Below are positions 383 to 20,000 of a stretch of 20,000 nucleotides of DNA, one piece after another (the stretch's first letter is position 1; each line of letters opens with the position of its first letter). Under the pieces are notes generated by a model, which saw nothing but the letters and a program-made list of their open reading frames with translations, ran no database searches and was not told the origin of the DNA. The position numbers and the translations under genes are program-made. This DNA comes from Chiloscyllium plagiosum (lineage: Eukaryota): the NCBI RefSeq assembly GCF_004010195.1, contig NC_057755.1, positions 6,785,132 to 6,805,131 of the forward strand, given 5' to 3'.

Positions 383-2382
383 ATAGAACATAGAACATAT
401 AAACGCACAGCACTGAACAGGCCCTTTAGCCCAAGATGTTGTGCTGATGTTAAATCCTAATATAAAATAAAATACCGCAACCTATGCATCCCGCAACTCA
501 CTGCTATCCATGTGCATGCCCAGCAGTTGCTTAAATGTCCCTAATGATCTGGTTCCACCGCCACCGCTGGAAATGCATTCCCTGCATTCAAAGCTCTCTC
601 TGTAAAGCACCGACCTCTGACATCTCCTCTATACCTTTCTCTTTATATCTTAAAACGATGACCACTTGTACCAGTCAATCCTGCCCTGGGGAAAAATTTC
701 TGGCTATTGAATCTAGCTATTCCTCTCATTGTCTTGTATTCCTCGATCAGGTCTCCTCTCTTCCTCCTTCTCCCCAGAGAGAAAAATCGGAGCTTTCGCA
801 TAAGGCAAGCCCTCCAGTCCAGGGAGCGTCTTAGTAAACCTTCTTTGCACCCTCTCCAAAGCTTCTGTATCTTTCCCATAGTAGGGCGACCAGAACTGGA
901 CACAATATTCCAAGTGTGGTCTCACCCTGGACTTGTAGTGCTGTAGCAAAACCTCGCAGCGATTAAACTCTATCCCCCTGTTAATGAAAGCCAAAATAGC
1001 ATATGCTTTCTTAACAACCCTATCCATTTGTGTGGCAACTTTGAGGGATCTATGCACTTGAACACCAAGATCACTCTGTTCCTCTTCAATGCCAAGAATC
1101 CTCTATTTAATCCTATATTCAGCATTCGAGTTAGACGATCAATAATGCATCATTTCACATTTATCCAGGTTGAACTCCATATGCCAATTCTCAGTCCAGT
1201 CCTACATCCTGTCTATGTCGCACTGCAGCCTGTAATAGCCCTCTATACTATTAACGGCACTTCCAATCTTTGTGTCATCTTCAAATTTACTAACCTTACC
1301 CTCAAACTCCTCATCCAAGTCATTTATAAAAACTACAAAGAACAGAGGCCCAAGAACACAGCCCTACGGGACACCACTCGTCACTGACCTCCAGGCGGAA
1401 GGTTTTCTGTCAGCCAACCAATTCAGAATCCAGATAGCCAACTCTCCCTGTATCCCATACTTCCTGACTTTATGAATGAGCCTACCATGGGGAACCTTGT
1501 CAAGTGCCTTGCTAAAGTCCAGATACACCACATCCATTGCTCTACCTTCATCGACCTATCTTGTCAGGCACCTCAAATAACTCAATATGGATGGTGAGGC
1601 ATAATGTGCTCCTGATAAAGCCATGCTGCCTACCTTTAAGAACACCATGCTTTGCCAAATATTCATCAATCGTATCCATTAGACTTCTTTCCAAACATTT
1701 GCTGACCACAGACTTAACACTGAATGGTCTGCAATTGCCCAGGAGTACCCTGTTGTCCTTCTTGAAAAAAGCAACAACATTTGCCTCATTTCAATCCTCC
1801 AGTATGACTCCCGTTCAAAGTGACGAGGCAAAGATCTTCGGCAGCTGCTTAGCAAACTCCTTTCGCGCTTCTGGGAGCAGCCTACGATAAATCTGGTCTG
1901 TCCCTGGGGACGTATCAATCTTAATGTTTGCCAAAATTTCCAGCACATCAAGTACTGTTCCATGCTCGAAGTTCGTCACTCTTGTTTCTGACATTCCTTG
2001 CGTTATAGCAGACACACTTTCACTGATCCCTTTGTTTCATTGCGTGAGAAACCTTCCAGATAGATTCACTACATCCTGTCTCTGCCCCATCTGTGACTGT
2101 CCCCCACTCAGATATGTGGCACTGATTCCCACCCCCCTATCAAACAAGTTTAAAAACTCCCGAATCACACGAGCAAATCTCCCACCAAGGACATTTGTGC
2201 CCGTCCAGTTCAGGTGCAACCCGTCCTTCATGTACAGGTACCAACTTCCCCAAAAGTTATCCCAATGGTCTAGGTATCTGAAGTCATCCCTCCTGCACGA
2301 GCCTCGCAGCCACATGTTAGCTGTATTAACTGACTGTTCCTCGCCTCACGATCGCGTGGCAACGGTAGCAAACAGGGGTTCA
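383..2382 (-). mobile_element. CR1-clade non-LTR retrotransposon, 5'-truncated, internally deleted, inactive
   Basis: 3' tail (TTCTATG)n-type repeat at 383-399 (ATAGAACATAGAACATA on +) and 3'UTR stem CAGCAC(408-413)/GTGCTG(441-446). Minus-strand translations give CR1 ORF2 motifs RPHLEYCVQFWSPYYGKDTEALERVQRRFTK, SKFEDDTK, VYLDFSKALDKVPHGRL and the ORF1 esterase end KDGLHLNWTGTNVLGGRF. Many frameshifts and stops. Confidence 0.93.
2037..2382 (-). pseudogene. C-terminal remnant of CR1 ORF1 SGNH/GDSL esterase-like domain plus inter-ORF region
   Basis: ORF 2037..2315 WLRGSCRRDDFRYLDHWDNFWGSWYLYMKDGLHLNWTGTNVLGGRF contains the DxxH (DGLH) motif. Homologous to 5680-6020. Confidence 0.85.
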
Positions 2383-2480
2383 GAAGTGAAGAAGTATTTT
2401 AGTGTCTGAGGTTCAGTCATGAGGCAGTAACGTCGCAGCCAGTGCTGTGACATTGTCTGAGAACTGACAAAGTTTTCAAG

Positions 2481-3171
2481 CCCAATTCTCCCATTTAGTC
2501 GTGCCCTACTCTATTTCTCCAATCCAGTACTGTCCTGCCCCAATTCTCCCATTAAATGCTGCACTGCAACAGTTCTTCCATTACTTTATGCTCTGTTCAA
2601 AATTCTCCTATTCAGACGTGGCCTGGCCGAATTATTCCATGTGGTAGTTCCTTGCAATGGTTGGTTTTCTCATTTGTTGGTCCATTGCCAGAATATTTTA
2701 AATTTTAGCATGGACTAGTTGAACAGGAAGGTGTTTCTATCCTGTACATCTCTGTGATTGCATGACTCTATTTAGGGCTGCACTGCTCTGCACCAATTCT
2801 CCCATTTACCAGTCTTGCACAAATCCTGGAGCTGTACTATCTCTCCGTTCAGTATTATCCTGCCCCAGTTTTCCCACGTAGTGTTACCCTGCACTAATTC
2901 TCGTATCTTGTGACACCGGCATGAATTCTCCAATTATTGATGCCCGTACATCTTTTCTCCAATACACTTATTCCACGTATTGGTTCCATACTCAATTTTT
3001 TTTATTTAGTCATGCGCAGACAGAATGTCCAATTTACTGATGCTTGCAACATTTATCTTCTTTTTATTCATGCCCGTTTTGATCCTATTTAGACCCTCTC
3101 TGCTCAAACTCTCTAATTTATTGGCACTGCCACAAATTCTATAATGTAATGGCACTTTGCACCAAACTCGC
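2481..3171 (+). repeat. Highly degenerate 29-bp satellite
   Basis: Recurrent CCAATTCTCCCATT(T/A)A..CTGC words at about 29-bp spacing. More decayed than the central blocks. Confidence 0.8.
2707..2771 (+). mobile_element. Short 3'-terminal fragment of a CR1-type LINE/SINE
   Basis: AGCATGGACTAGTTGAACAGGAAGGTGTTTCTATCCTGTACATCTCTGTGATTGCATGACTCTAT resembles a CR1 3'UTR stem followed by a decayed (CTCTATGA)n octamer tail. It interrupts the satellite phase. Confidence 0.55.
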
Positions 3172-3229
3172 ATTCTGGATTAGTGGTGCTGGAAGAGCAC
3201 AGCAATTCAGGCAGCATCCGAGGACCAGC

Positions 3230-3268
3230 CAAATCGACGTTTCGGGCAAAAGCTCTTCATCAGGAATA
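3230..3268 (-). ncRNA. Minimal type I hammerhead ribozyme motif in PLE pLTR (probably impaired)
   Basis: Minus strand reads CUGAUGA-A-GAGC-UUUU-GCCC-GAAA-CGUC: both conserved core boxes, stem II with one A.C mismatch, palindromic ACGU in place of stem III and a GUC cleavage triplet. Minimal hammerheads are established features of PLE pLTRs. Confidence 0.75.
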
Positions 3269-4020
3269 AAGGCAGAGAGCCTAAAGCGTGGTGAGATAAG
3301 CTGGAGGAGGGTGGGGATGGGGAGAGAGTAGCATAGAGTACAATAGGTCAGTGGGGGAGGAGATGTAGCTGATAGGTCATGGAGGAGAGGGTGGAGTGGA
3401 TATGTGGAAAAGGAGCTGGGCAGGTCGGACAAGTCCGGACAAGACAAGGGGACAGTGTTGAGCTGGAGGTTTGAAACCAGGATGAGGTGGGGGAAGGGGA
3501 AACAAGGAAACTGTTGAAGTCCACATTGATGCCCTGGGGTTGAAGTGTTCCGAGGCGGAAGATGAGACGTTCTTCCTCCATGCGTCTGGTGGTGAGGGTG
3601 CGGCGGTAGAGGAGGCCCAGGACGTCCATATCCTCGGCAGAGTGGGAGGGGGAGTTGAAATGTTGAGCCACAGGGCGGTTTTGGTTGATTGGTGCGGGTG
3701 TCTCGGAGATGTTCCATAAAGCGCTCTGCTAGGAGATGCCCAGTCTCCCCAGTAGGGGGGCGTGGACCTGACCAGGTAGTCACGGAGGGAACGGTCTTTG
3801 CGGAAGGTGGAAAGGGGTGGGGAGGGAAATATATCCCTGGTGGTGGGGTCTGTTTGGAGGTGGCGGAAATGTCGGCGGATGATTTGGTTTATGCGAAGGT
3901 TGGTGGGTTGGAAGGTGAGCACCAGGGTCGTTCTGTCCTTGTTACGGTTGGAGGGGTTGGATCTGAGGGCGGAGGTGCGGGCTGTGAAAGAGATGCGTTG
4001 GAGGGCATCTTTAACCACGA

Positions 4021-4115
4021 GGGAAGGGAAATTGCGGTCTCGAAAGAAGGAGCACGTGGGAAGGGAAATTGTGGTCTCGAAAGAAGAAGCACATGGGAAG
4101 GGAAATTGCGGTCTC
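4021..4115. repeat. 37-bp tandem repeat x2.6 at the PLE 5' truncation point
   Basis: GGGAAGGGAAATTG(C/T)GGTCTCGAAAGAAG(G/A)AGCAC(G/A)T starts at 4021, 4058 and 4095 (last copy partial). Mirrored at about 19794-19888. Confidence 0.95.
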
Positions 4116-4762
4116 TGCCATTTAGTGGTGCCCGACTCTAATTCTCCTATGTAATGCCACAATTCTCTAATTGAGTTCCACTGTGCACCAGTTCTTCCAT
4201 TTAGTATTTCCCTGCAACACTTATCTCAGTTAGTTATTCGCTGCTAGAATTCTCTAATATTGATGTGTCCTGCATCAAAACTCCAATCTGCACGGAGAGT
4301 GAAAATGCCTTATTTCTGCACTGCACCAATTCTCACATCTAATACTGCATGGCACAAATTCTCACATTGAGCATTACACTGCCCCGATTCTCCTATTTAG
4401 TCCAACACTGCACCAATTCGATCATTTCGTACTATACTGTGTCAAGTCTCCTAGTTAATGCTGCTCTGCACCAATCCTCCCATTTAGTGCTCCACATTTC
4501 CCAATTCTCCCATTTAAAAATAAATTCATCAGTTCTCCTATTTGTTCTGATACAGAACCAATTCGCCCATTTAGTGCTACACTGCATCAATTCTCACATT
4601 ACGACACTGCACTAATTCTCCATTTAGTATTTTAATGCTTCAATACTCCCATTTAGTACTACACTATCCCCGTTCTCCCGTTTACTGCTATACTGCTGAA
4701 GTTCTTCCATTTAATATAAGACTTCCATAATTCTCCCTTTCAGTACTACACTGCATCAATTT
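4116..4762 (+). repeat. 29-bp satellite block
   Basis: Repeating CCAATTCTCCCATTTAGTGCTACACTGCA variants between the PLE and the CR1. Confidence 0.92.
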
Positions 4763-4975
4763 ACTTTGAACAGAGCGGTGAGGAGAGAGGGTTCAGGGAA
4801 TAAAGGGCTGCTGGGAAGTTTTAAAGTGGGTGAGATCTAAACCCGAGACCTTACACCGTAGGGCCTCCCTCTAACCTTACTAAAAATCTGTAAACTCTGC
4901 AAGTTTGCAGGTTTTCTCTTTTTTTTTGCTTCTCTTCCCCATTTAGTACTATGTTGGCTTTCAGATTAGAGGGGC

Positions 4976-5908
4976 ATGGCTGATAGAGCAGTTGCATGTT
5001 CCTCCTGCACAATGTGGCAGGTGAGAGACACAACACATGTCTCTGCCGACCACATCTGAGGGAAGTGCACCAAATCCAATTCCTCAAAAACGGAGTTAGG
5101 GAACTGGAGCTGCAGCTCAATGAACTGTGAATCGTCCGGGAGGCTGATGGAGAAATTGAGAGGATGCGCAGAGAGATGGTCACTCTTCAGACACAGTATA
5201 ATGACAGCTGACATACATTCAGGGGAAGGAAAGAGAACCAATAGATAGAGCGGGGGTAACCTATGGCCGTTCCCCTCAGCAATAAGTATACCATTTCGTA
5301 CACAACTGGTGAGAAGGCCTACCAACGGAAAGCCATAGTTGTCAGATTTCTGGCACTGAGCCTGGCACTGATGCTCAGAAGGAAAGAGGAGGGAGAATAG
5401 AAAATCACTGGTGGGAGGGAACTCAATAGTTAGACGGATTGACAGGAGATAATATGGTCAGGAACGGGACACCCGGTAAGTATTTTGCCTCCCCGATGCC
5501 AGGATCTGATATGACATCAATCGAATTTACTGGATTCTGAATGGAGAGGGTGAACAGCCAGAAATCGTGGTACATATTGGAACCAATGATATAGCCAGGG
5601 AATGGATTGAGGGTCTGAAAAGTGACTACAGAGAGTGAGGTTGGAAGCTGAAGAGCAGGACGAATAGAGGAGTGACCTCAGGTTGGCTACTGGTGCCACG
5701 ACACAGTGAGGTGAAAAACAGTCCGCGAATGCAGCTTAACAAGTGGCTGCGAGCCTGGTGCAGGAGGGTGATTTCAGATAGGTAGACCATTAGGACGCCA
5801 TCTGAGGAATGTGGGACCTATTCCTATTGGATGGTTTGCACGTGGTCTGGAGGGGCACAAATGTCCTGGATGGGTGATTTCATCATGGTTCTGGAGGGTT
5901 TAAACTAG
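4976..5908 (+). pseudogene. CR1 ORF1 (N-terminal Cys zinc-finger/leucine zipper + SGNH esterase), disrupted
   Basis: ATG 4976 gives MADRAVACSSCTMW...HI*GKC (CxxC...CxxC with a stop at the third Cys), then the heptad FLKNGVRELELQLNEL and esterase blocks GNSIVR, VVHIGTNDI, DGLHV. Multiple stops and frameshifts. Confidence 0.88.
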
Positions 5909-6012
5909 TTAGGAAAGGGGGTGAGAACCAGAGCTACATATCTGAGAGGAGGCAGTTGCAGATGGGGCAGCGGCAGGATGTAGAAAATCCAGCAGGAAGG
6001 TTTTTTCACTTG

Positions 6013-8673
6013 ATGAAACAAAAGAATCGGTTAAAGTGTGTCTGTTTTATCGCAAGGAATGTCAGAAATAAGAGTGATAAACTTATAGCACGGATCAGTA
6101 CTTGGGAATATGGTGATGTGTTCGTAACGGAGACGTGAGTTTCACAGGGGCAGGAATGGTTGCTTGATGTTCCTGTGTTTAGAACGTTTAAAAAGAACAG
6201 GGCGGTGGAAAAAGAGGAGGGGGTGTAGCAGTGTTAATCAGAGAGAGCATCACAGCTACGGAAACGAAGGTTGTCGAGAAAGGTTTGTCTACTGAGTCAG
6301 TAGGTGGTAGTTAGGAACTTGAAGGAGCTCTCTTCCTCCCTCTACAAAGATTTCAGTGAGTCCCACTCTCACTGTACCCCCCAGGTCATCTCCTCTGCAC
6401 AGAAGCTCTTCAGCAGAAGGGATTATGCCCGAAACGTCGATTCTCCTGTTCCCTGGATGCTGCCTGACCTGCTGCGCTGTTCCAGCAACACTTTTTCGGC
6501 TCTGATCTCCAGCATCTGCAGACCTCACTTTCTCCTCAAAGATTTCAACCTACTGCGAATCCTCTTACAAGGATGCCTTCCTTGAAGAAGCTCTCTTCCT
6601 CCCTCTACAAAGATTTCAGTGAGTCCTTCTCTCACTGCACCCCCCAGGTCATCTCCTCGGCACAGAAGCTCTTCAGCTAGAAGGGCTTATGCCCTAAACG
6701 TCGATTCGCCTGTTCCCTGGATGCTGCCTGACCTGCTGCGCTTTTCCAGCAACACATTTTCGGCTCTGGTAGTTAGGAACACCAAGGAATCAGCCAATTC
6801 ATTGGCGATTTTTTACAGACCCCCAAATCGCAGTAGTGAGATTGAAGAACTCAACTGCGGCAGGTTTTGGAAAAATGCAGATGGAGCAGTGTTGTTATGG
6901 GCAACTTCAACTTTCCTAATATTGACTGAGACTTCCTTTGAGCAGATGGTATCGGTGGAGCCGTTTTTGTCTGGTGTGTTCAGGAGGGTTTCCTTACGCA
7001 ACATGTAGACAAGCCAACGAGGGAAGAGGCCATTTTGGGCTTCGTACTCGGCAATGAGCCAAGACAAGTGTCAGATCTCGAGTTGGGAGGACACTTTGGT
7101 GGCAGTGACCACAACTGCCTCACATTTACCACAGATTGGATAGGGAAAAGAGCGGTTGTCAATGGAAGATATTTAATTGAGGAAAAGTAAATTATGATGC
7201 GATCACAGGAGTTGGGAAGTACAGATTAGGAGCAAGTATTCTGCTGAAAGCGCAAAACAGATATGTAGAGACTATTTAAGTAGCAGTTGTTTCCACTGAT
7301 GCACGAATTTATTTCCTCTGAGACAGGTAAGAAGGGGTAAGATTAAGAGCCTTGGATGAACCGAGGAGCTACTGGAAGGAAAAAGACAGCTTACGTAAGG
7401 TGAAGGAAGCAAAGATCTAGCACAATATTGGAGGATTTCTGGCCTACGAGAAAGGAGCTCATAAATGGACTGAGAACAGCCAAGAGGTGGCACGAAAACG
7501 GCTTGGCACGGAAGATGAACGAAAACCCAAAGGCCTTTTACTCATACGTGTGGAATAAGAGAATAATCAGGGAGAAGGTAGGGCCGGTCAGGGATAACGT
7601 AGGGAACTTGTGTGTGAAGTCTAAGCAGATAGGGGAAGTCCATAATGAGTTTTTTTGCTTCGGTTTTTACTCAGAAAAGGGACCTTGTTGTGAATGAAAA
7701 CGTTGAGGTGCTGGAAAACAGGCTTGAAAAGATCAAGATTGATGAATTTGATGTGATGGAAAATTTGGCAATCATTAAGATTGCTAAGTCCCCATGGCCA
7801 AAATCAGATTTACCTGGGCTGCTCCAGAATGCGAGAAAGGCGCTTGCTAATTCGCTGATGAAGATCTTTGTTTCCTGACTCTGCACAGGAGTCGTATCAG
7901 AGTATTGGAGAGAGTAGAATGCTGTTCCTCTTTTCAAGAAGGGAAATAGGAAAGTCCCTGGCAATTAAAGACAAGTCAGTCTTATGTCTGTGGTCAGCAA
8001 GGTTTTGGAAAGAATTATGAGCGATAGGATTCATGACTATTGGAAAAGAATGGTGTGATTAAAGGCAGTTAATACGCTTTGTGAGGGGCAGATCATGTCT
8101 CACAAATCTTGTTAAGTTTTTTGAGGAGGTGATGAGACATGTCGACGATGGCAGAGCACTGGATGTGGTGTATATGGACTTCAGCAAAGCATCTGATCCC
8201 ATGCTAGGTTCATTCATAAAATCAGTAGATCTGGGGTACAAGGAGATTTGGCTGTATGGATTCAGAACTGGTTAGCTGACAGAAGGCAGAGAGTAGTTGT
8301 CGATGGAAACTATTCTGCCTGGAGGTCAGTGGTGAGTGTTGTCCCGTATGGCTCTGTTCTTGGGCTACTGCTCTTTGTAGTTTTTTTTATATATGACTTG
8401 GATGAGAAGGTTGAGGGCTGGAGTAGTAAATTTGCCAATGAAACAAAGGTTTGACGTGCCGTTGATAGCATCGAAAACTATTGCAGGCTGCAGCACGACA
8501 TAGACATGATGCAGAGCTGGACTGAGAAAAGACAGATGGAGTTCAACCTGGATAAATGCGAAGTGATGCAATTTGGAAGGTCGAACCTGAATGCTGAATA
8601 TAGTATTAAAGACAGGATTCTTGACAGTGTGGAGGAACAGGGGGATCTTGGTGTTCCAGTGCATACATCCCTC
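6013..8673 (+). pseudogene. CR1 ORF2 (APE endonuclease + reverse transcriptase), disrupted and interrupted by an insertion
   Basis: APE motifs CFIARNVRNK...VTET, IFYRPPN, MGNFNFPNID, GGSDHN. RT motifs GRSCLTNL, DVVYMDFSKA, VPYGSVLG, SKFANETK (the catalytic FADD is lost). Confidence 0.92.
6319..6766 (+). mobile_element. 448-bp non-autonomous PLE-derived mini-element (263-bp unit x1.7) with 14-bp TSD
   Basis: TGGTAGTTAGGAAC duplicated at 6305-6318 and 6767-6780. Direct repeats 6319-6504 and 6582-6768. The segment GCCCGAAACGTCGATT...GGATGCTGCCTGA...TTCCAGCA is homologous to the reverse complement of 3172-3260. Absent from the other arm (empty site 17645-17658). Confidence 0.92.
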
Positions 8674-11600
8674 CAATTTACTGATGCTTATTACAAATCT
8701 CCTATTTAGGGGTGCTCTTCCCCACTTCCCCCATTTCATGCTGCTTAGCAGTAATTCTCTAAATTAGTTCAACTCTGCACCAAATCTACCGTTTACCTCT
8801 ACACTGCATGAATTCAGAAATTTAGTACTGCTTTGCATTAATTCTCCCATATGTTACTGGACGAAACCAATCCTCCAATTTAGTACTACATGCCAGCAAT
8901 TCTCCCGTTTAGTACCACACTGCGGCAATTCTCACTTTAAAAAATAAATTGAACCAATTCTCCCTTTTATTGCTACACTGCAACAATTCTCTCGTTTCGT
9001 GTTACAGACGTTCTGTTTATAGCTACACTACACGAATTCTCCCATTAAACTTTACACTGCAACAATAATCCTTTTTTGTTATTACACTGTAACATTTCTC
9101 CCATTTCGCATTGCATTCTACCAATTCTCCCACTTCACGATACTCTTCACCAATTCTCCCATTTAGCGCTACACTGAACCAATTCTCCCATTTGCTGCTA
9201 CACTGCACCAGTTCTCTATTTTGCGCCACATTATACCAGTTATCCCATTCAGTACTATACTGCACCAATTCTTCCAATTAATGTGACGATGCATCAATTT
9301 TCCTACTTTGTACTCCATTGCATCAATTCTCCAATTTCATTCTGTACTCAACTATTCCCCCATTTAGTACAACACTGAACCAGTTCTTCCATTTATTGCT
9401 GCGCTGTACCAATTATCCCATTCAGTGCTACACTGTAGTAATTCTCCCATTTACTGCTTCATTGCATCAATTCTGCAATTTCACCCTTTTCGGACTACAC
9501 AGCAGCACATTTTCCATTTGCACAAATTCTCACATTTATTGTTGCACTGTACCAATTCTTCCATTTAGTGCTATGCTGCACCAGTTCTCTTATTTCGTGA
9601 TATAGTGCACAAATTCTCCCAATTAATGATACACTGCCGCAATTCACTAATTTAGTCCTGCAGTGCAACACATCTCCACTTAGAGTTACACTGCCTCAAG
9701 TCTCCAATTTAGTACTACTCTGCACTAATTCTTCCTTTTTTTGCCGAACTGCACGACTTTTTGCAATTTAATAATAGATTGCGCCAGTTCTCACATTAGT
9801 TATCACACTGTACCAATTCCACAACTTAATACTACACTGCACCATTTCTCCCCTTTCGGGCTGCACAACACCAATCCTTGCAATCACTGTAACTCTGCAC
9901 AAACTCTTCCATTTATTGCGCCTCTGTACTAATTCTCTCATTTATTGCTACACTGTACCATTTAGTGCTACAATGCCCCAATTCTCCAATTTCCTACTAC
10001 ATTGCACCAATTCTCGCACTTAGTGCTACTCTGCCCACATCTCCCATTTGGTACTACTCTGCACCAATTCTCCTATTTCCTGCTACTCTGCACCAATTCT
10101 CCCATTTATTGCTACAGTGCACTAATCCTCTATTTATTACTGCACTTCTCCCATCTCCCATTTATTAATAAACTGCAACAATTCTCCTATTTTGAGCTAC
10201 ACTGCCCCAATCCTCTCATTTTTGCAACACTATACCAATTATCCCATTTAGTATTATTCTGCAGCAATTTTCCCATTTCGAGCTGTAATGCGCCAATTCA
10301 TCCAATTAGTGCAACTCTGCACCAACTCTGCCACATACTTCAAAACTACAACAAATCCCTCATTTAGTGCTGCACTGATACAAGTCTCCCATTTCGTACC
10401 TCGCTACACCAATTCCCTCATTTCGGGCTACACTGCGCCAATTCGCCCATTTAGTACCACACTGAACTAATTCTGCCATTTATTGCTACAGTGCACCAAT
10501 TCTCAAATCAGTATAACACAGCCACATTTCTCAGATTTAATGCTGAACTTCACCAATTCTTTCATTTAGGGCTATCCTCCCCAAAGTGCTACAGTTCCTC
10601 ATCCTCCCATTTATTGCGACGATGTACCAATTGTCCCATTTAGTGCTGCACTGCCTCAATTCTCACACTTATTGCTACTCTGTACCAATTCCCCCATTCA
10701 GTGATAAACTGCCCCAATTCTTCAATTTATTGCTACACTGCACCAAATCTACCATTTAATGCGAAACGCATCCATTTTTCCAATTTGTGTTACACTGCAC
10801 CCATTCTTCAATTTCGTATGACACTGCCACAATTCCTCCAGTTAGTACTACACTGCACCAAGTCTCGCATTTCTTGCAATCCTGTATCAACTCTTCTATT
10901 TAGTGCTACACAGTCCCAATTCTCCAAATTAAAGCTTTCCTGCACCAATAATTCTATTCATTGCAACACAGCACCAGTTCTTCCATTTATTGCGACGCTG
11001 TACCAATTCTCCCATCCAGTGTTTCACTGCAGAAATTCTCCCGTTTACGTTCCACTTCAGCAATTCTGCAAATTAGTGCTACAATGCCCAATGTCTCCCA
11101 TTTCATTTTACGCTGCTGCACTCTTTGCATTTCGAAATCCAGTGCACACATTCTCCCTTTTTCATCTGACATGAAACCAATTCTCACATTCAGTATTATT
11201 CTGCACACATTCTCCCATTTCGTGCTTCGCTGCACCAGATTTTTCCATTTCGTGATACACTTATCCAATTCACCCATTTAGTACTACACTGAACTAATTC
11301 TCCTATTTCGTTATATAGTTCACCAATTGTCCCATTTCGTGCGACACTGCCCCGATTCTCCACTTTAGAACGACACTGCAGCACTTCTCTCATTTAGTGT
11401 TAGACTGCCCCAAGCCTCCCAGTTAGTACGGCCTGCACCAATTCTCCCATTATTTTGGAATTTAGCTATACAGTGCCAATTCTCAGATTTAACATTGCAC
11501 TCTACCAATTCTCCAATTTAGTACCACAGTGAACCAGTTCTCCCATCTCGTGATACACCAACAATTCACCAATTTAATCCTATTCTGCGTTCGGTAATAC

Positions 11601-11849
11601 ATTGCAGCAATTCTTCCATTTCGTGCTACAAAGCACCAATTCTATCATTTCTTACCACACTGCCTCAATTCCTCCATTTCAGGAAACTGCACCAATACTC
11701 CCATTTAGTGTGCGTTTGCACTGATTCTCCCTTTCATTACGACACTTTCCCAAGTCTCCCTTTATAGCTATTTTTACTACAATTCTGCCATTTAGTACTA
11801 CACTGCACCAATTGTCACATTTACTGCTACACTGCCCTATGTCTCCCAT
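8674..11849 (+). repeat. 29-bp satellite array (about 110 diverged monomers)
   Basis: Example: CAATTCTCCCATTTAGCGCTACACTGAAC|CAATTCTCCCATTTGCTGCTACACTGCAC near 9151. The 29-bp period persists up to the gap. Confidence 0.96.
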
Positions 11850-12349
11850 NNNNNNNNNNNNNNNNNNNNNNNNNNNNNNNNNNNNNNNNNNNNNNNNNNN
11901 NNNNNNNNNNNNNNNNNNNNNNNNNNNNNNNNNNNNNNNNNNNNNNNNNNNNNNNNNNNNNNNNNNNNNNNNNNNNNNNNNNNNNNNNNNNNNNNNNNNN
12001 NNNNNNNNNNNNNNNNNNNNNNNNNNNNNNNNNNNNNNNNNNNNNNNNNNNNNNNNNNNNNNNNNNNNNNNNNNNNNNNNNNNNNNNNNNNNNNNNNNNN
12101 NNNNNNNNNNNNNNNNNNNNNNNNNNNNNNNNNNNNNNNNNNNNNNNNNNNNNNNNNNNNNNNNNNNNNNNNNNNNNNNNNNNNNNNNNNNNNNNNNNNN
12201 NNNNNNNNNNNNNNNNNNNNNNNNNNNNNNNNNNNNNNNNNNNNNNNNNNNNNNNNNNNNNNNNNNNNNNNNNNNNNNNNNNNNNNNNNNNNNNNNNNNN
12301 NNNNNNNNNNNNNNNNNNNNNNNNNNNNNNNNNNNNNNNNNNNNNNNNN
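11850..12349. other. Assembly gap, exactly 500 N
   Basis: Round-number N run, typical of a fixed-size scaffolding join. True distance unknown. Confidence 0.99.
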
Positions 12350-15300
12350 GGGGAATTGGGGCTGTGTAGTAGTAAATGGGAGAATTGGTTCAGAGTAGTA
12401 CTAAATAGGAGATTTGGGGCAGCGTAACCCTAAATGGTAGAAATGTTGCAGTGTGGTACTAAATTGGAGAATTGGGACAGTGTAATACTAAATAGAGAAG
12501 TGGTGCACTGTCGCAATAAATGGGAGATTTGGTGCAGAGTTCCACGAATTGGTAGAATTGGTGCAGAGCAGATCTAAATGGGAGACATAGGGCAGTGTAG
12601 CAATAAATGGGACAATTGGTGCAGTGCAGTACTAAATGGCAGAATTGTAGTAAAAATAGCTATAAGGGGAGACTTGGGAAAGTGTCGTACTGAAAGGGAG
12701 AATCAGTGCAAACTCGCACTAAATGGGAGTATTGGTGCAGTTTCCTGAAAGGGACGAATTGAGGCAGTGTGGTAAGAAATGAGAGAATTGGTGCTTTGTA
12801 GCACTAAATGGAAGAATGGCTGCAATGTATTACCGAATGCAGAATAGGCCTAAATGGGTGAATTGTTGGTGTATCACGAGATGGGAGAACTGGTTCACAG
12901 TGGTACTAAATTGGAGAATTGGTAGAGTGTAATGCTAAATGTGACAATTGGCACTGCATAGCTAAATTCCAAAATAATGGGAGAATTGGTGCAGGCCGTA
13001 CTAAATGGGAGGCTTGGGGCAGTCTAACACTAAATGAGAGAAGTGCTGCAGTCTCGTACTAAAGTGGAGAATTGGGGCAATGTCGCACTAAATGGGACAA
13101 TTGGTGCACTATATAACGAAATAGGAGAATTAGTTCAGTGTAGTATTAAATGGGTGAATTGGTTAATTGTATCACGAAATGGAAAAATACGGTGCAGCGA
13201 AGCACGAAATGGGAGAATGTGTGCAGAATAATACTGAATGTGAGAATTGGTTTCATGTCAGATGAAAAAGTGAGAATGTGTGCACTGGATATCGAAATGC
13301 AAAGAGTGCAGCAGCGTAAAATGAAGTGGGAGAAATTGGGCATTGTAGCAATAATTTGCAGAATTGCTGAAGTGGAACGTAAGCGGGAGAATTTCTGCAG
13401 TGTAACACTGGATGGGAGAATTGGTACAGCGTAGCAATAAATGGAAGAACTGGTGCTGTGTTGCAATAAATAGGATTATTGGTGCAGGAAAGCTTTTATT
13501 TGGAGAATTGGGACTGTGGAGCACTAAATAGAAGAGGTGATACAGGATTTGAAGAAATGAGAGACTTGGGGCAGTGTAGTACTAACTGGAGGAATTGTGG
13601 CAGTGTCATACGAAATTGAAGGATGGGTGCAGTGTAACACAAAATGGAAAAATGGATGCGTGTCGCATTAAATGGTAGATTTGGTGCAGTGTAGCAATAA
13701 ATCGAAGAACTGGGGCAGTTTATCACTGAATGGGGGAATTGGTACAGAGTAGTAATAAGTGTGAGAATTGAGGCAGTGCAGCACTAAATGGGACAATTGG
13801 TACATCGTAGCAATAAATGGGAGGATGAGGAACTGCAGCACTTTCGGGAGTATAGACCTAAATGAAAGAATTGCTGAAGTTCAGCATTAAATCTGAGACA
13901 TGGGGGTGTGTTGTACTAATTTGAGAATTGGTGCACTGTAGCAATAAATGGCAGAATTAGTTCAGTGTGGTACTAAATGGGCGAATTGGCGCAGTGTAGC
14001 CCGAAATGAAGGAATTGGTGTAGCGAGTTACGAAATGGGAGACTTGTATCAGTGCAGCACTAAATGAGGGATTTGTTGTAGTTTTGAAATATGTGGCAGA
14101 GTTGGTGCAGAGTTGCACTAATTAGATGAATTGGCGCATTACAGCTCTAAATGGGAAAATTGCTGCAGAATAATACTAAATGGGAAAATTGGTATAGTGT
14201 TGCAAAAAATGAAAGGATTGGGGCAGTTTATTAATAAATGGGAGAGGGGAGAAGTGCAGTATTAAATAGAGAATTGGTGCACTGTCGCAATAAATGGCAG
14301 AATTGGTTCAGAGTTCATGGAATGGGAGAATTGGTGCAGATTAGTACCAAATGGGAGATGTGGGCAGAGTAGCACTAAGTGCGAGAATTGTTGTAATGTA
14401 GTAGTAAATTGGAAAATTGGGGCACTGTAGCACTAAATGGTACAGTGTAGCAATAAATGAGAGAATTAGTACAGTGGCGCAATAAATGCCAGCGTTGGTG
14501 CAGAGTTACAGTGATTGCAAGGATTGGTGTTGTGCAGCCCGAAAGGGGAGAAATGGTGCAGTGTAGTATTAATTTGTAGAATTAGTACAGTGTGATAATC
14601 AATGTGAGAACTGGCGCAATCTAGTATTAAATTGCAAAAAATCGTGCAGTTCTTCAAAATGAAGGAAGAATTAGTGCAGAGTAGTACGAAATGGGAGACT
14701 TGAAGCAGTGTAACTCTAAGTGGAGATGTGTTGCACTGCAGGACTAAATTAGTGAATTGCGGCAGTGTATCACTAATTGGGAGAATTTATGCACTATATC
14801 ACGAAATGAGAGAACTGGTGCAGCATAGCACTAAATGGAAGAATTGGTACAGTGCAACAATAAATGTGAGAATTGGTATAGTGTCGCATGAAAAAGTGAG
14901 AATTTGTGCAATTGGAAAATGTGCTGCTGTGTAGTACGAAAAGGTTGAAATTGCAGAATTGATGCAATGAAGCAGTAAATGGGAGAATTACTGCAGTGTA
15001 GCACTGAATGGGAGAATTGGTACAGCGCAGCAATAAATGGAAGAACTGGTTCAGTGTTGTACTAAATGGGGGAATTGTTGCAGTACAGAATGAAATTGGA
15101 GAATTGGTACAATGGAGTACAAAGTAGGAAAATTGATGCATCGTCACTCTAATTGGAAGAATTGGTGCAGTATAGTACTGAATGGGATAACTCGCATAAT
15201 GTGGCACAAAATGGGAGAACTGGTGCAGTGCAGCAGCAAATGGGAGAATTGGTTCAGTGTAGCGCTAAATGGGAGAATTGGAGAAGAGTATCGTGAAGTG

Positions 15301-15757
15301 GGAGAATTGGTAGAATGCAATGCGAAATGGGAGAAATGTTACAGTGTAATACTAAAAAGGGATTATTGTTGCAGTGCAAAGTTTAATGGAAGAATTCGTG
15401 TCGTGTAGCAATAAACAGAACGTCTGTAACACTAAACGAGAGAATTGTTGCAGTGTATCAATAAAAGGTAGAATTGGTTCAATGTGTTTTTTAAAGGGAG
15501 AGTTGTCGCAGTGTGGTACTAAACGGGAGAATTGCTGGCATGTAGTACTAAATTGGAGGATTGGTTCAGTCTAGTAACATATGGGAGAATTGTTGCAGAG
15601 CAATACTAAATTTCTGAATTCATGCAGTGTAGAGGTAAACGGGAGATTTGGTGCAGAGTTAAACTAATTTAGAGAATTAGTGCTAAGCAGCATGAAATGG
15701 GGGAAGTGGAGAAGAGCACCCCTAAATAGGAGATTTGTACGAAGCATCAGGAAATTG
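12350..15757 (-). repeat. 29-bp satellite array, inverted orientation (about 117 monomers)
   Basis: TGCAGTGTAGCACTAAATGGGAGAATTGG variants. 12578-15757 is the monomer-by-monomer reverse complement of 8674-11849. Confidence 0.96.
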
Positions 15758-18700
15758 GAGGGATGTATGCACTGGAACACCAAGATCCCCCTATTCCTCC
15801 ACACTGTCAAGAATCCTGTCTTTAATACTATATTCAGCATTCAGGTTCGACCTTCCAAATTGCATCACTTCGCATTTATCCAGGTTGAACTCCATCTGTC
15901 TTTTCTCAGTCCAGCTCTGCATCATGTCTATGTCGTGCTGCAGCCTGCAATAGTTTTCGATGCTGTCAACGGCACGTCAAACCTTTGTTTCATTGGCAAA
16001 TTTACTACTCCAGCCCTCAACCTTCTCATCCAAGTCATATATAAAAAAAAATACAAAGATCAGAAGCCCAAGAACAGAGCCCTACGGGTAAACACTCACC
16101 ATTGACTTCCAGGCAGAATAGTTTCCATCGACAACCACTCTCTGCCTTTTGTCAGCTAACCAGTTCTGAATCCAGACAGCCGAATCTCCTTGTACCCCAG
16201 ACCTACTGATTTTATGAATGAACCTAGCATGGGATCAGATGCTTTGCTGAAGTCCATATGCACGACATCCAGTGCTCAGCCATCGTCGACCTGTCTCATC
16301 ACCTCCTCAAAAAACTAAACAAGATTTTTGAGACATGATCTGCCCCTCACAAAGCCATATTAATTGCCTTTAATCACGCCATTCTTTTCCAATAGTCATG
16401 AATCCTATCCCCCATAATTCTTTCCAAAACTTTGCTGACCACAGACGTAAGACTGACTTGTCTTTAATTGCCAGCGATTTTCCTATTCCCCTTCTTGAAA
16501 AGAGGAACAGCATTCTACTCTCTCCAATACTCTGATACGACCCCTGTGCAGAGTCAGGAAACAAAGATCTTCGCCAGCGAATTAGCAAGCGCCTTTCTCG
16601 CATTCCGGAGCAGCCCAGGTAAATCTGATTTTGGCCATGGGGACTTAGCAATCTTAATGATTGCCAAATTTTCCATCACATCAAATTCATCAATCTTGAT
16701 CTTTTCAAGCCTGTTTTCCAGCACCTCAACGTTTTCATTCACAACAAGGTCCCTTTCCTGAGTAAAAACCGAAGCAAAAAAACTCATTATGGACTTCCCC
16801 TATCTGCTCAGACTCCACGCACAAGTTCCCTACGCTATCCCTGACCGGCCCTATCTTCTCCCTTCTCTTATTCCTCACGTATGAGTAAAAGGCATTTGGG
16901 TTTTTGTTCATCTTTCGTGTCAAGCCGTTTTCGTGCCACCTCTTGGCTGTTCTCAGTCCATTTATGAGCTCCTTTCTCGTAGGCCAGAAATCCTCCAATA
17001 CTGTGCTAGATCTTTGCTTCCTTCACCTTACGTAAGCTGCCTTTTTCCTTCCAGAAGCTCCTCGTTTCATCCAAGGCTCTTAATCTTACCCCTTCTTACC
17101 TGGCTCAGAGGAACAAATTCGTGCATCAGTGGAAACAACTGCTACTTAAATAGTCGCTATATATCTGTTGTGCGCTTTCTGCAGAATTATTGCTCCTAAT
17201 CTGTACTTCCCAACTCCTGTGATCGCATCATAATTTAGTTTTCCTCAATTAAATATCTTCCATTGTAACTGCTCTTTTCCCTATCCAATCTGTGGTAAAT
17301 GTGAGGCAGTTGTGGTCACTTCCACCAAAGTGTCTTCCCACCTCGAGATCTGACACTTGTCTTGGCTCATTGCCGAGTCCGAAGCCCAAAATGGCCACTT
17401 CCCTCGTTGGCTTGTCGACATGCTGGGTAAGGAAACCCTCCTGAACACACCAGACACAAACGGCTCCACCCAGACCATCTGCACAAAAGAAGTTCCAGTC
17501 AATATTAGGAAAGTTGAAGTTGCCCATAACAACGCTGCTCCATATGCATTTTTCCAAAACCTGCCGGCAGTGGAGTTCTTCAATCTCACTACTGCGATTT
17601 GGGGGTCTGTAAAAATTCGCCAATGAGGTGGCTGATTTCTTGGTGTTCCGAACTATCACCCGTAGTGACTCAGTAGACAAACCTTTCTCGACAACCTTCC
17701 TTTCCGTAGCTGTGATGCACTCTCTGATTAACACTGCTACACCCTCTCCTCTTTTTTCACCGCCCTGTTCTTTTTAAACGTTCTAAACACAGGAACATCA
17801 AGCAACCATTCCTGCCCCTGTGAAACTCACGTCTCCATTACGAACACATCACCATATTCCCAAGTACTCATCCGTGCTCGAAGTTCATCACTCTTATTTC
17901 TGACATTCCTTGCGATAAAACAGACACACTTTAACCGATCCTTTTGTTTCATCAAGTGAAAAACCTTCCTTATAGATTCACTGCATCCTGCCGCTGCCTC
18001 ATCTACAACTGCCCCCTCTCAGATATGTAGCTCTGGTTCCCACCCCCTTTCAAAACTAGTTTAAACCCTCCCGAACCATGATCAAATCGCCCATCCAGGA
18101 CATTTGTGCCCCTCCAGATCACGTGCAAACCATCCTATAGGTATAGGTCCCACGTTCCTCAGATGGCGTCCTAATGGTCTACGTATCTGAATCCACCCTC
18201 CTGCACCAGGCTCGCAGCCACTTGTTAAGCTGCATTCGCGTACTGTTTTTCACCTCACTGTGTCGTGGCACCAGTAGCCAACCTGAGGTCATTCCTCTAT
18301 TCGTCCTGCTCTTCAGCTTCCAACCTCACTCTCTGTAGTCACTTTTCAGACCCTCAATCCATTCCCTGGCGAAATCATTGGTGCCAATATGTACCACGAT
18401 TTCTGGCTGTTCACCCTCTCCCTTCAGAACCCAGTAAACCCGATTGATGTCATATCAGATCCTGGCACCGGGGAGGCACAACACTGACCGAGAGTCCCGT
18501 TCCTGACCATAATATCTCCTGTCAATCCGTCTAACTATTGAGTTCCCTGCCACTAGTGCTTTTCTATTCTGCCTCCTCTTTCCTTCTGAGCATAAGTGCC
18601 AGGCTCAGTGCCAGAAATCTGACAACTATGGCTTTCCGTTGGTAGGCCTTCCCACCAGTTGTGTACGAAATGGTATACTTATTGCTGAGGGGAACGGCCA

Positions 18701-19200
18701 TAGGTTACCCCTGCTCTATCTATTGGTTCTCTTTACTCCCACTGAATATATGTCAGCTGTCATTATACTGTGTCTGAAGAGTGACCATCTCTCTGCACAT
18801 CCTCTCAATTTCTCCATCAGCCTCCCGGACGATTCGCAGTTCATTGAGCTCCAGCTCCAGTTCCCTAACTCCGTTTTTCAGGAATTGGATTTGGTGCACT
18901 TCCCTCAGATGTGGTCGGCAGAGACATGTGTTGTGTCTCTCACCTGCCACATTGTGCAGGAGGAACATGCAACTGCTCTATCAGCCATGCCCCTCTAAAC
19001 TGAAAGCCCACACAGTACTAAATGGGGAAGAGAAGCAAAAAAAAGAGAAAACCTGCCAACTTACAGAGTTTACAGATTTTTAGTAAGGTTAGAGGGAGGC
19101 CCTACGATGTAAGGTCTCGGGTTTAGATCTCACCAACTTTAAAACTTCCCGGCAGCCCTCTATTCCCTGAACCCTCTCTCCTCGCCGCTCTGTTCAAAGT
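15758..19200 (-). mobile_element. Second copy of the 3'-truncated CR1 (ORF1 about 18988-18056, ORF2 about 17952-15758), without the mini-PLE
   Basis: Reverse complement of 4763-8673 with the same satellite junctions, the same ORF1 stop (CACATCTGA) and the same FANE lesion. Confidence 0.95.
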
Positions 19201-19793
19201 AAATTGATGCAGTGTAGTACTAAAAGGGAGGATTATGGAAGTCTTATATTAAATGGAAGAACTTCAGCAGTATAGCAGTAAACGAGAGAACGGGGATAGT
19301 GTAGTACAAAATGGGAGTGTTGAAGCATTAAAATACTAAATGGAGAAATAGTGCAGTGTCGTAACAAATGGGAGAATTGATGCAGTGTAGCACTAAATGG
19401 GCGAATTAGTTCTGTATCAGAACAAATAGGAGAACTGATCAATTTATTTTTAAATGGGAGAATTGGGAAATGTGGAGCACGAAATGGGAGGATTGGTGCA
19501 GTGTTGGACTAAATAGGAGAATTGGGGCAGTGTAATGCTCAATGTGAGAATTTGTGCCATGCAGTATTAGATGTGAGAATTGGTGCAGTGCAGAAATAAG
19601 GCATTTTCACTCTCCGTGCAGATTGGAGTTTTGATGCAGGACACATCAATATTAGAGAATTCTAGCAGCGAATAACTAACTGAGATAAGTGTTGCAGGGA
19701 AATACTAAATGGAAGAACTGGTGCACAGTGGAACTCAATTAGAGAATTGTGGCATTACATAGGAGAATTAGAGTCGGGCACCACTAAATGGCA
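19201..19793 (-). repeat. 29-bp satellite block, inverted copy of 4116-4762
   Basis: Reverse-complement match, two monomers shorter. Confidence 0.92.
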
Positions 19794-20000
19794 GAGACCG
19801 CAATTTCCCTTCCCATGTGCTTCTTCTTTCGAGACCACAATTTCCCTTCCCACGTGCTCCTTCTTTCGAGACCGCAATTTCCCTTCCCTCGTGGTTAAAG
19901 ATGCCCTCCAACGCATCTCGACCACAGCCCGCACCTCCGCCCTCAGACCCAACCCCTCCAACCGTAACAAGGACAGAACGACCCTGGTGCTCACCTTCCA
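19794..20000 (+). mobile_element. PLE fragment, inverted copy of 3909-4115 (runs off the window)
   Basis: Same 37-bp triplication and FFRDRNFPSLVVKDALQRIS coding remnant. Confidence 0.93.

What the first reader, a model, noticed from the sequence alone, without database searches (positions are those of the whole stretch)
6305..6780. Arm-specific mini-Penelope element: 263-bp unit x1.7, 14-bp TSD, empty site visible in the same window
Seen: a 448-bp insert flanked by identical TGGTAGTTAGGAAC copies. The other arm has a single target, TGATAGTTCGGAAC (17645-17658, -). The insert is 186 bp + 77 bp + 187 bp, a permuted head-to-tail repeat. The unit joins a pLTR/hammerhead 3' half to a 35-codon ORF (6573-6680, MPSLKKLSSSLYKDFSESFSHCTPQVISSAQKLFS*). 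Established: PLEs form partial-tandem pLTR structures and can mobilise small non-coding derivatives. Inference: this is a PLE whose ORF was deleted from about codon 35 to the next pLTR and which still transposed in trans, making it a candidate undescribed non-autonomous (retrozyme-like) family. The two internal copies differ at about 10 substitutions and 1 indel while the TSDs are identical, which favours a source that was already a diverged tandem over fresh rolling-circle copying of one circular RNA.
Basis: partly seen in the sequence, partly recalled or inferred. Interest (0 to 1): 0.72.

Follow-up and report, generated by a model that had tools for sequence, protein, structure and literature searches.

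The report
Twice-copied Penelope fragment in shark genome
A small jumping-gene insertion in a shark genome holds 1.7 head-to-tail copies of a 263-base piece of a Penelope-like retrotransposon; it looks more like a one-off, made when the copying enzyme went round a short RNA twice, than like a new mobile family.

Summary
The structure is real: a 448-bp insert (6319-6766), an exact 14-bp TSD, a single target in the other arm, and 1.7 units of 263 bp. Each unit is a natural piece of a shark Penelope-like element (PLE): hammerhead 3' half, tail, 5' UTR and ORF codons 1-35, joined end to start. The join removes the hammerhead's CUGA box, so this is not a retrozyme. The copies differ by 5.4%, the arms by 4.6%, identical TSDs have P about 0.5, and private changes split 6:4. 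The only indel lies exactly at the join, which suggests the join was made twice during one insertion. In four public runs laid, none known to be this species, the parent parts are very abundant, but 0 of 20 and 0 of 4 raw reads show this join. One contig from another organism carries a different join 3 nt away with an intact core. Best reading (0.5): a one-off, two-pass reverse transcription of a short PLE RNA. A low-copy family (0.3) is not excluded, because no genome was held. Earlier scan notes describe PLE stubs in this genome; none returned describes this unit.

The parts
6305..6318 (+). Left target-site duplication (14 bp); its last C also matches ORF nt 9 (1-nt microhomology at the 5' join)
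6319..6414 (+). 5'-truncated PLE ORF start, ORF nt 10-105 (copy 1)
   Evidence: 95% to 6581-6677; tblastn with P0001 and P0002
6414..6415 (+). Join 1: ORF nt 105 joined bluntly to the hammerhead just after its missing CUGA box
   Evidence: parental loose ends before 6415 end in ..CCTCATTCCTGA (table 7)
6415..6504 (+). pLTR 3' part, copy 1: hammerhead stem II, GAAA, GUC site ending at 6438, and downstream sequence
   Evidence: 82% to the window's own PLE end at 3182-3258 (-); very high depth in all four runs
6505..6572 (+). Single-copy segment: 32-nt tail ending at about 6536 (a common 3' end of relatives), then 5' UTR
   Evidence: loose ends pile behind 6534-6536; contigs run 6524-6610 and 6493-6586; spacing
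6573..6677 (+). PLE ORF codons 1-35 (copy 2)
   Evidence: 34/35 identical to the N-terminus of P0001; P0001 linked to RT/GIY-YIG proteins through P0005
6678..6678 (+). Join 2: one extra T between ORF nt 105 and the hammerhead half; the only indel between the two copies
6679..6766 (+). pLTR 3' part, copy 2; ends 64-66 nt past the GUC site, with TG shared with the TSD (2-nt microhomology); inferred start of reverse transcription
   Evidence: loose ends at 6755-6760 in relatives
6767..6780 (+). Right target-site duplication (14 bp)
17645..17658 (-). Empty target in the paralogous arm (12/14 identical)
5900..8680 (+). Host element: decayed LINE with AP-endonuclease-like and RT remnants; the insert lies in the endonuclease part (the label CR1-type is recalled, not tested)
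   Evidence: Pfam RVT_1 E 6.6e-08 and Exo_endo_phos E 0.0097, below cut-off; Exo_endo_phos_2 E 0.0064 in the other arm
3180..4120 (-). Separate 5'-truncated PLE with intact minimal hammerhead core (3236-3263); local control for the parent structure

Best explanation
The insert is a single PLE-made integration whose template was a short piece (about 263 nt) of PLE RNA, running from inside the hammerhead to ORF codon 35. PLE reverse transcriptase began at its normal internal start site (6766-6768) and copied back to the template's 5' end (6679). It crossed to the 3' end (6677) with one extra base, copied the whole piece, crossed again with no extra base (6415|6414), and stopped 96 nt later. The crossing was either an end-to-end template jump or imprecise read-through of a ligated circle. 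The two copies were identical at birth and decayed in place. SHOWN: anatomy, PLE origin, lost core, indel at the join, symmetric decay on the local clock. INFERRED: start site, short RNA template, two passes, and one-off status.
For: (1) The only indel in 186 aligned bp is at the join. Arm indel rate is 8 gap openings per 3266 bp, so about 0.46 are expected in 186 bp, and a given indel falls within 1 bp of the join with P about 0.016 (noticed post hoc). (2) The 10 substitutions split 6 (copy 1) to 4 (copy 2) against relatives (9 sites, 1 from P0001; binomial p 0.75), and 5.4% (CI 2.6-9.7%) matches arm divergence of 4.6%. (3) Among the 40 difference rows shown (78 hidden), only 6498/6762 is clearly shared by both copies and rare in relatives, so the source was close to the parent. 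(4) The 3' end lies 32 nt before the other common end at 6536, like the 30-40-nt tail between two RT start sites in the anole PLE; that study also found hammerhead cleavage dispensable in vitro (PMC11167929). (5) No sign of an abundant family: in raw RNA reads of organism A, 0 of 20 covering 6414 and 0 of 4 covering 6678 carry the window's letter. Contig depth with T at 6678 is at most 85 (X1) and 30 (X13), against 230,000 and 105,000 on the ORF start. (6) Other, different ORF/UTR-to-hammerhead joins occur in relatives (X16 record 17; X1 record 8; joints 6604>6679 and 6536>6680). (7) Jumps with non-templated bases are shown for R2 RT in vitro and in vivo (PMC8857657; PMC3414825).
Against: No laid run is known to be the window's species (best share of words 0.45), and no genome was held, so absence of the join is untested where it matters. 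Contig depth is no copy number, contigs drop rare variants, X13 was partly uncounted, and 0 of 20 only bounds the share below about 14%. The bound for the blunt join is weak (at most 947 in X1 and 656 in X13, mixed with parental ends). Template jumping has not been shown for a PLE RT in any paper I read, and PMC8857657 notes that L1 chimeras arise from pre-ligated RNA. The template's inferred 5' end lies 4 nt inside the core, whereas earlier scan notes (not re-measured here) put usual ends 8-12 nt upstream, so a trimmed RNA must be assumed. X16 record 17 aligns across join 1 without a gap at the join and differs there by only two bases, which could mean shared ancestry. X1 record 8 could carry the same join with its 9 extra letters elsewhere.
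Confidence: 0.5

Rival explanations
1. Low-copy non-autonomous family. A DNA master with the ORF deleted from codon 36 to the next hammerhead, in tandem or making a circular RNA, is mobilised in trans by PLE RT; this insert is one 5'-truncated daughter.
For: The unit keeps the RT start site and downstream sequence, and pLTR sequences suffice for trans-mobilisation (PMC3846280). Such derivatives exist (MRC1, PMC8557442; animal retrozymes). Organism D has a 104-nt contig (depth 95) bridging ORF start and an intact CTGAAGA core in the same register as join 1, with 67 and 38 letters on the two sides. P0001 residues 36-39 (HILK) allow codons resembling the hammerhead front, which could seed a recurrent deletion (DNA not read).
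Against: Needs the only indel to fall on the join by chance (P about 0.016). Almost no shared diagnostic changes among rows shown. No read or listed contig with this exact join in four runs. No intact hammerhead to cut unit-length RNA, and no special fold. The TSD argument has no force. The scan's sequence look-up found no look-alike.
Confidence: 0.3
2. One-off DNA-level history: an ordinary PLE insertion later lost its ORF by deletion, and a 263-bp stretch was locally duplicated (slippage or unequal exchange), with no special RNA template.
For: Microhomology-mediated internal deletions of PLE copies are reported (PMC3846280). Local tandem amplification of PLE ends is proposed in the 2026 preprint. 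The window's other PLE lacks the stretch matching P0034 residues 304-369.
Against: The left copy starts at ORF nt 10, directly at the TSD, so the same deletion must be present twice inside one TSD pair, or the duplication must restart exactly in phase. Join 1 shows no microhomology against the pLTR loose-end letters (the parental ORF DNA beyond codon 35 was not read). The 1-nt difference at the join remains unexplained.
Confidence: 0.12
3. Decayed true retrozyme: the template was a unit with an intact hammerhead (263-272 nt), cut and circularised at GUC, and the core was lost in copying or afterwards.
For: Intact-core joins appear possible nearby (X16 record 17; X1 record 8 has 9 extra letters, position not shown). 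Hammerhead-made circles were proposed to explain PLE tandems (PMC4209133).
Against: Both copies read as ORF sequence (S35) up to the join and both lack the core, so the loss would have to happen twice or precede the copying. The join is 23-24 nt upstream of the GUC site, not at it.
Confidence: 0.08

Closest known systems
Partial-tandem insertions of endonuclease-bearing Penelope-like elements with pLTR and tail (Arkhipova 2013 PMC3846280; Craig 2021 PMC8557442; Frangieh 2024 PMC11167929)
   Same: Head-to-tail partial tandem, 5' truncation, TSD (8-10 bp in the rotifer examples, 14 here), 3' end at an internal site with a second end about 32 nt further on, hammerhead-bearing terminal repeat.
   Different: The repeating unit is 263 bp instead of a full element of several kb; all of RT and the endonuclease and the 5' box of the hammerhead are missing.
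Animal non-LTR retrozymes (Cervera and de la Pena 2020 PMC7229834; Li, Clavereau and Pollet, bioRxiv 10.64898/2026.07.22.740005)
   Same: Small (170-400 nt class) tandem unit derived from a PLE pLTR, long TSD, presumed mobilisation by PLE RT; reported for one chondrichthyan (mean 363 bp).
   Different: No complete type I hammerhead in either unit, fewer than two units, not highly self-paired, carries ORF codons 1-35, and no evidence of many copies.
Non-autonomous PLEs such as MRC1 of Chlamydomonas (PMC8557442)
   Same: Short, non-coding PLE derivative with pLTR-forming head-to-tail structure.
   Different: MRC1 is a multi-copy active family of the Chlamys clade, which lacks canonical hammerheads; family status is not shown here.
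R2 SIDEs and in vivo R2 template jumps (Eickbush and Eickbush 2012, PMC3414825)
   Same: An internally deleted derivative joining the two ends of an element; junctions made by RT jumping from an RNA 5' end, with 0-2 non-templated bases at 5' junctions.
   Different: SIDEs keep a working ribozyme and are site-specific LINE derivatives; the jumps there go to other RNAs, not round the same template.

Membership tests
PLE-made insertion | Sequence derived from an element with RT and C-terminal GIY-YIG | tested here: met
   ORF stub is 34/35 to P0001; P0001 103-174 is 57% to P0005; the P0005 RT region hits proteins with RVT_1 plus GIY-YIG (P0019, P0023, P0087). This is a chain of homologies, not one full-length protein.
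PLE-made insertion | Head-to-tail partial tandem forming a pLTR, 5' truncated | tested here: met
   1.70 units, starting at ORF nt 10
PLE-made insertion | TSD with an empty site | tested here: met
PLE-made insertion | 3' end at one of two sites 30-40 nt apart (tail) | tested here: met
   End equivalent to 6504; relatives pile at 6534-6536; 32 nt apart. Relatives' ends near 6760 are blurred by subfamily differences.
Autonomous PLE | Intact RT-EN ORF | tested here: not met
   35 codons only
Non-LTR retrozyme | Complete type I hammerhead in each of at least two consecutive units | tested here: not met
   The descriptor finds only 3236-3263 (-); both insert copies lack CUGA, and copy 2 also has GAAA changed (6695 T); criterion
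Non-LTR retrozyme | Unit of about 170-400 nt with homology to a PLE pLTR | tested here: met
   263 nt; 82% to the window PLE end
Non-LTR retrozyme | Highly self-paired circular RNA structure | tested here: not met
   Circular MFE -52.2 against -54.1 +/- 4.2 for 100 shuffles, z +0.47; other strand z +0.42; decayed copy, so a limited test
Non-LTR retrozyme | Self-cleavage and accumulation of circular monomers | not testable with these tools
   Needs in vitro cleavage and RNase R or northern data
Non-autonomous PLE family (MRC1/SIDE-like) | Several independent insertions sharing the same join | tested here: inconclusive
   None seen in 4 of 24 listed runs laid; no genome held; the runs may be other species
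Non-autonomous PLE family (MRC1/SIDE-like) | Diagnostic changes shared by copies and absent from the parent | tested here: inconclusive
   One clear site (6498/6762) among 40 rows shown, 78 hidden
Neptune clade (parent) | [quoted passage not shown] | tested here: inconclusive
   Cys linker seen in relatives P0034 and P0019; feature; no tree built

The most novel reading that the evidence does not exclude
Sharks carry low-copy, roughly 263-272-nt PLE derivatives formed at a join hot spot between ORF codons 34-39 and the hammerhead front. Some keep the core (organism D contig) and some lack it (this insert), and PLE RT copies them by going more than once round one RNA whose ends are not set by hammerhead cleavage. 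This would be in vivo evidence of hammerhead-independent rolling or end-jumping synthesis, and a snapshot of how retrozymes are born from PLEs.
Probability: 0.25. Interest if true: 0.55.

Novelty: new variant of a known kind. Interest (0 to 1): 0.3.

Why it matters
How PLEs build their partial tandems is open: hammerhead-cut circles (PMC4209133) and multi-copy transcripts with internal initiation (PMC11167929) have both been proposed. A TSD-bounded 1.7-turn copy, whose two joins differ by one base and lie 23-24 nt from the hammerhead cut site, is what a two-pass, cleavage-independent route would leave, and it points to a simple genome-wide test. As a single decayed locus it is only suggestive, and small tandem PLE derivatives are already a known kind.

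Tried and rejected
No whole genome is held for this window, so the genome-wide junction count could not be run. Rfam: 2 matches at E <= 5, both chance miRNA hits below gathering score. Junction pattern: 2 metagenome hits (L001, L002) with no homology beyond the pattern; 0 in viral contigs; 0 in prokaryote genomes. Searches for parent DNA found nothing, so the ORF DNA after codon 35 was not read. The look-up of sequencing runs listed no RNA holder on record; the shares of words (0.29-0.45) were not used as evidence. In one search, 3 of 5 hits (P0006-P0008) are repeat-rich proteins and were dropped as chance. The PDB search of P0005 hit only a ClpX fragment in that gene model. Pfam found nothing on the 35-aa ORF, P0001-P0003, P0005 or the window's PLE frames. 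The transversion-rich spectrum between copies (3 transitions, 7 transversions, against 72:78 in the arms) is not significant (p 0.34). Assembly artefact of the insert was rejected: the copies differ at 11 places and lie inside an exact TSD. Chance TSD was rejected (empty site in the other arm). Exact homology-guided switching was rejected for this join, because the putative homologous 10 nt are missing from both copies.

Full report
OBSERVATION. The 14-mer at 6305-6318 recurs exactly at 6767-6780 and extends on neither side. The only other near match in the window is 17645-17658 (-), with 2 mismatches. The window is largely an inverted duplication around a 500-N gap (11850-12349): 3909-4433, 4443-6318 and 6770-11849 match the right arm at 98.1, 94.6 and 93.2%. 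Aligning the arms leaves one large gap at this site, so the right arm is an empty site. The insert is 448 bp; 6319-6504 and 6582-6768 differ by 10 substitutions and one indel, giving 1.70 units. The host is a decayed LINE (RVT_1 E 6.6e-08; weak endonuclease hits).

WHAT THE PARTS ARE. The 35-codon ORF is 34/35 identical to the N-terminus of P0001, named by its source 'mucin-2-like [Hemiscyllium ocellatum]'; related N-termini occur in other shark gene models. P0001 103-174 is 57% identical to the start of P0005. The RT region of P0005 retrieves 110 proteins among 207 candidates, including P0019, P0023 and P0087, which carry RVT_1 and GIY-YIG domains. So the stub is the start of a PLE ORF, by a chain of homologies. 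The other half is 82% identical to the 3' end of a separate PLE in the window (3182-3258, -), whose ORF remnants match shark PLE proteins at 67-85%. That PLE holds the only minimal-hammerhead match in the window. In the insert, stem II, GAAA and the GUC site are present but the CUGA box is replaced by ORF sequence; copy 2 has also lost the G of GAAA. Contigs from public runs cover 6493-6654 in overlapping pieces (records 5, 6, 12-14), so 6415-6677 is one natural stretch of the parent: hammerhead 3' half, tail, 5' UTR, ORF nt 1-105. The only new feature is the end-to-start join.

IS IT A FAMILY? No genome is held. I listed 24 public runs (best share of words 0.45, so none is shown to hold the locus whole) and laid 4 on 6240-6839 at 85% likeness: X1 (organism A, DNA?), X13 (B, DNA?), X16 (D, RNA?), and X21 (A, raw RNA reads, about 2% of the run, 2,887 laid). 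Summed contig depth in X1 and X13 is about 1e6-2e7 on the pLTR part and about 1e5 on the ORF start; the tool warns that this is no copy number. At 6678, depth not explained by the parental A is at most 85 of 26,251 (X1) and 30 of 1,639 (X13). At 6414 the remainder is at most 947 and 656, mixed with parental ORF ends. In X21, 20 of 20 reads at 6414, 3 of 3 at 6677 and 4 of 4 at 6678 carry other letters. None of the 24 records shown (of 180,335) has the window's join for certain; X1 records 1, 2 and 7 stop at it. Results pointing the other way: X16 record 17 (104 nt, depth 95) bridges 6348-6452 with T at 6412 and A at 6414, which gives an intact CTGAAGA core in the same register. X1 record 8 runs 6596-6694 with 9 extra letters whose place is not shown, and has only 16 letters past the join. 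Joints 6604>6679 and 6536>6680 are listed with short sides (21-28 letters). So an abundant family with this join is unlikely in organisms A, B and D; a low-copy or species-specific one is not excluded; and similar but different joins recur. The scan's own index holds no look-alike and nothing near.

THE DIVERGENCE ARGUMENT. The LINE flanks differ between arms at 150 of 3266 sites (4.6%); the internal copies differ at 10 of 186 (5.4%, CI 2.6-9.7%; Fisher p 0.59). Identical 14-bp TSDs are expected with P 0.46-0.52. Against relatives, six changes are private to copy 1 (6325, by P0001; 6365, 6375, 6422, 6479, 6492) and four to copy 2 (6627, 6659, 6695, 6708); 6479 is polarised by X21 reads but not by X1 contigs. 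Only 6498/6762 is clearly shared and rare in relatives among the 40 rows shown (78 hidden). It does not by itself exclude such a source.

MECHANISM. The right end is 64-66 nt past the GUC site and 32 nt before the position (6534-6536) where relatives' loose ends pile. In the anole PLE, RT starts at two internal sites that bound the 30-40-nt tail, and hammerhead mutants still insert in vitro (PMC11167929). I infer that 6766-6768 is an RT start, with 2 nt of microhomology to the target. The one indel between the copies is the T at the join; for a fixed join the chance of that is about 1.6% per indel (post hoc). The simplest account is that the join was made twice: RT reached the 5' end of a short RNA, crossed to its 3' end with one extra base, went once round, crossed again without one, and stopped at ORF nt 10. 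R2 RT jumps with non-templated additions (PMC8857657; PMC3414825), but I found no such demonstration for a PLE RT, and a ligated circle read imprecisely would look the same. The join is 23-24 nt upstream of the cut site, so hammerhead cleavage did not define it. Earlier scan notes report that PLE 5' ends in this genome pile 8-12 nt upstream of the core; the loose-end consensus before 6415 stays conserved for about 15 nt, which is compatible but is not a measurement. P0001 residues 36-39 (HILK) allow codons that resemble the hammerhead front. This may explain why joins recur here, and would give exactly 9 extra letters as in X1 record 8, but the DNA was not read and this is inference.

COMPARISON WITH WHAT IS KNOWN. 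It works like a PLE partial-tandem insertion. It is not a non-LTR retrozyme by the published criterion of two consecutive units with complete type I hammerheads, and it is not unusually self-paired (z +0.47). Non-autonomous tandem PLE derivatives are described (MRC1; vertebrate retrozymes including one chondrichthyan). Eight literature searches listed no paper whose title or shown text describes this shark unit. Repbase, Dfam and the preprint's supplements could not be seen and may catalogue it. What I read: bioRxiv 10.64898/2026.07.22.740005, parts 1-3 of 5 (abstract to discussion); PMC11167929, parts 1-2 of 4; PMC3414825, abstract and section 8; keyword passages only of PMC3846280, PMC8557442, PMC4209133, PMC7229834, PMC8857657 and PMC8969392. 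The label 'CR1-type' and the hammerhead core numbering are recalled.

VERDICT. A real, well-bounded PLE-derived 1.7-mer. Most likely a one-off product of two-pass reverse transcription (0.5), possibly a low-copy non-autonomous family (0.3), and not a retrozyme. New variant of a known kind; interest 0.3.

Noticed in passing
window 3909-11849 and 12578-20000: Large inverted duplication around a 500-N gap (11850-12349); identity varies from 93% to 98% by segment; the right arm runs off the window. Paralogous duplication or scaffolding of two related contigs was not resolved.
   Followed up: partly
window about 2470-3120, 4130-4770, 8690-15670, 19200-19600: Long, diverged 29-bp satellite arrays with strong strand asymmetry.
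   Followed up: no
window 3180-4120 (-), partly repeated at 19684-20000 (+): 5'-truncated PLE with intact minimal hammerhead core; lacks the stretch matching P0034 residues 304-369 (Cys linker and GIY motif); its 5' part has a short internal repeat.
   Followed up: partly
window 6295-6304 vs 17659-17670: The filled arm lacks 2 bp just left of the left TSD compared with the empty arm.
   Followed up: no
run X16 record 17, laid on window 6348-6452: Contig from organism D joins the PLE ORF start to an intact hammerhead core, 3 nt from this insert's join; a candidate true retrozyme-type unit.
   Followed up: partly
run X1 record 8, laid on window 6596-6694: Contig from organism A joins ORF start to hammerhead stem II with 9 extra letters (position not shown).
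   Followed up: partly
proteins P0001, P0004, P0005, P0029, P0074: Public shark and ray gene models that contain PLE sequence under host-gene names (mucin-2-like, prostatic acid phosphatase-like, nicotinamide riboside kinase, chitinase domain) or fused to a ClpX fragment; probably annotation artefacts.
   Followed up: no
window about 540-2400 (-): A third, more diverged copy (74-84%) of the same LINE type as the insert's host.
   Followed up: no
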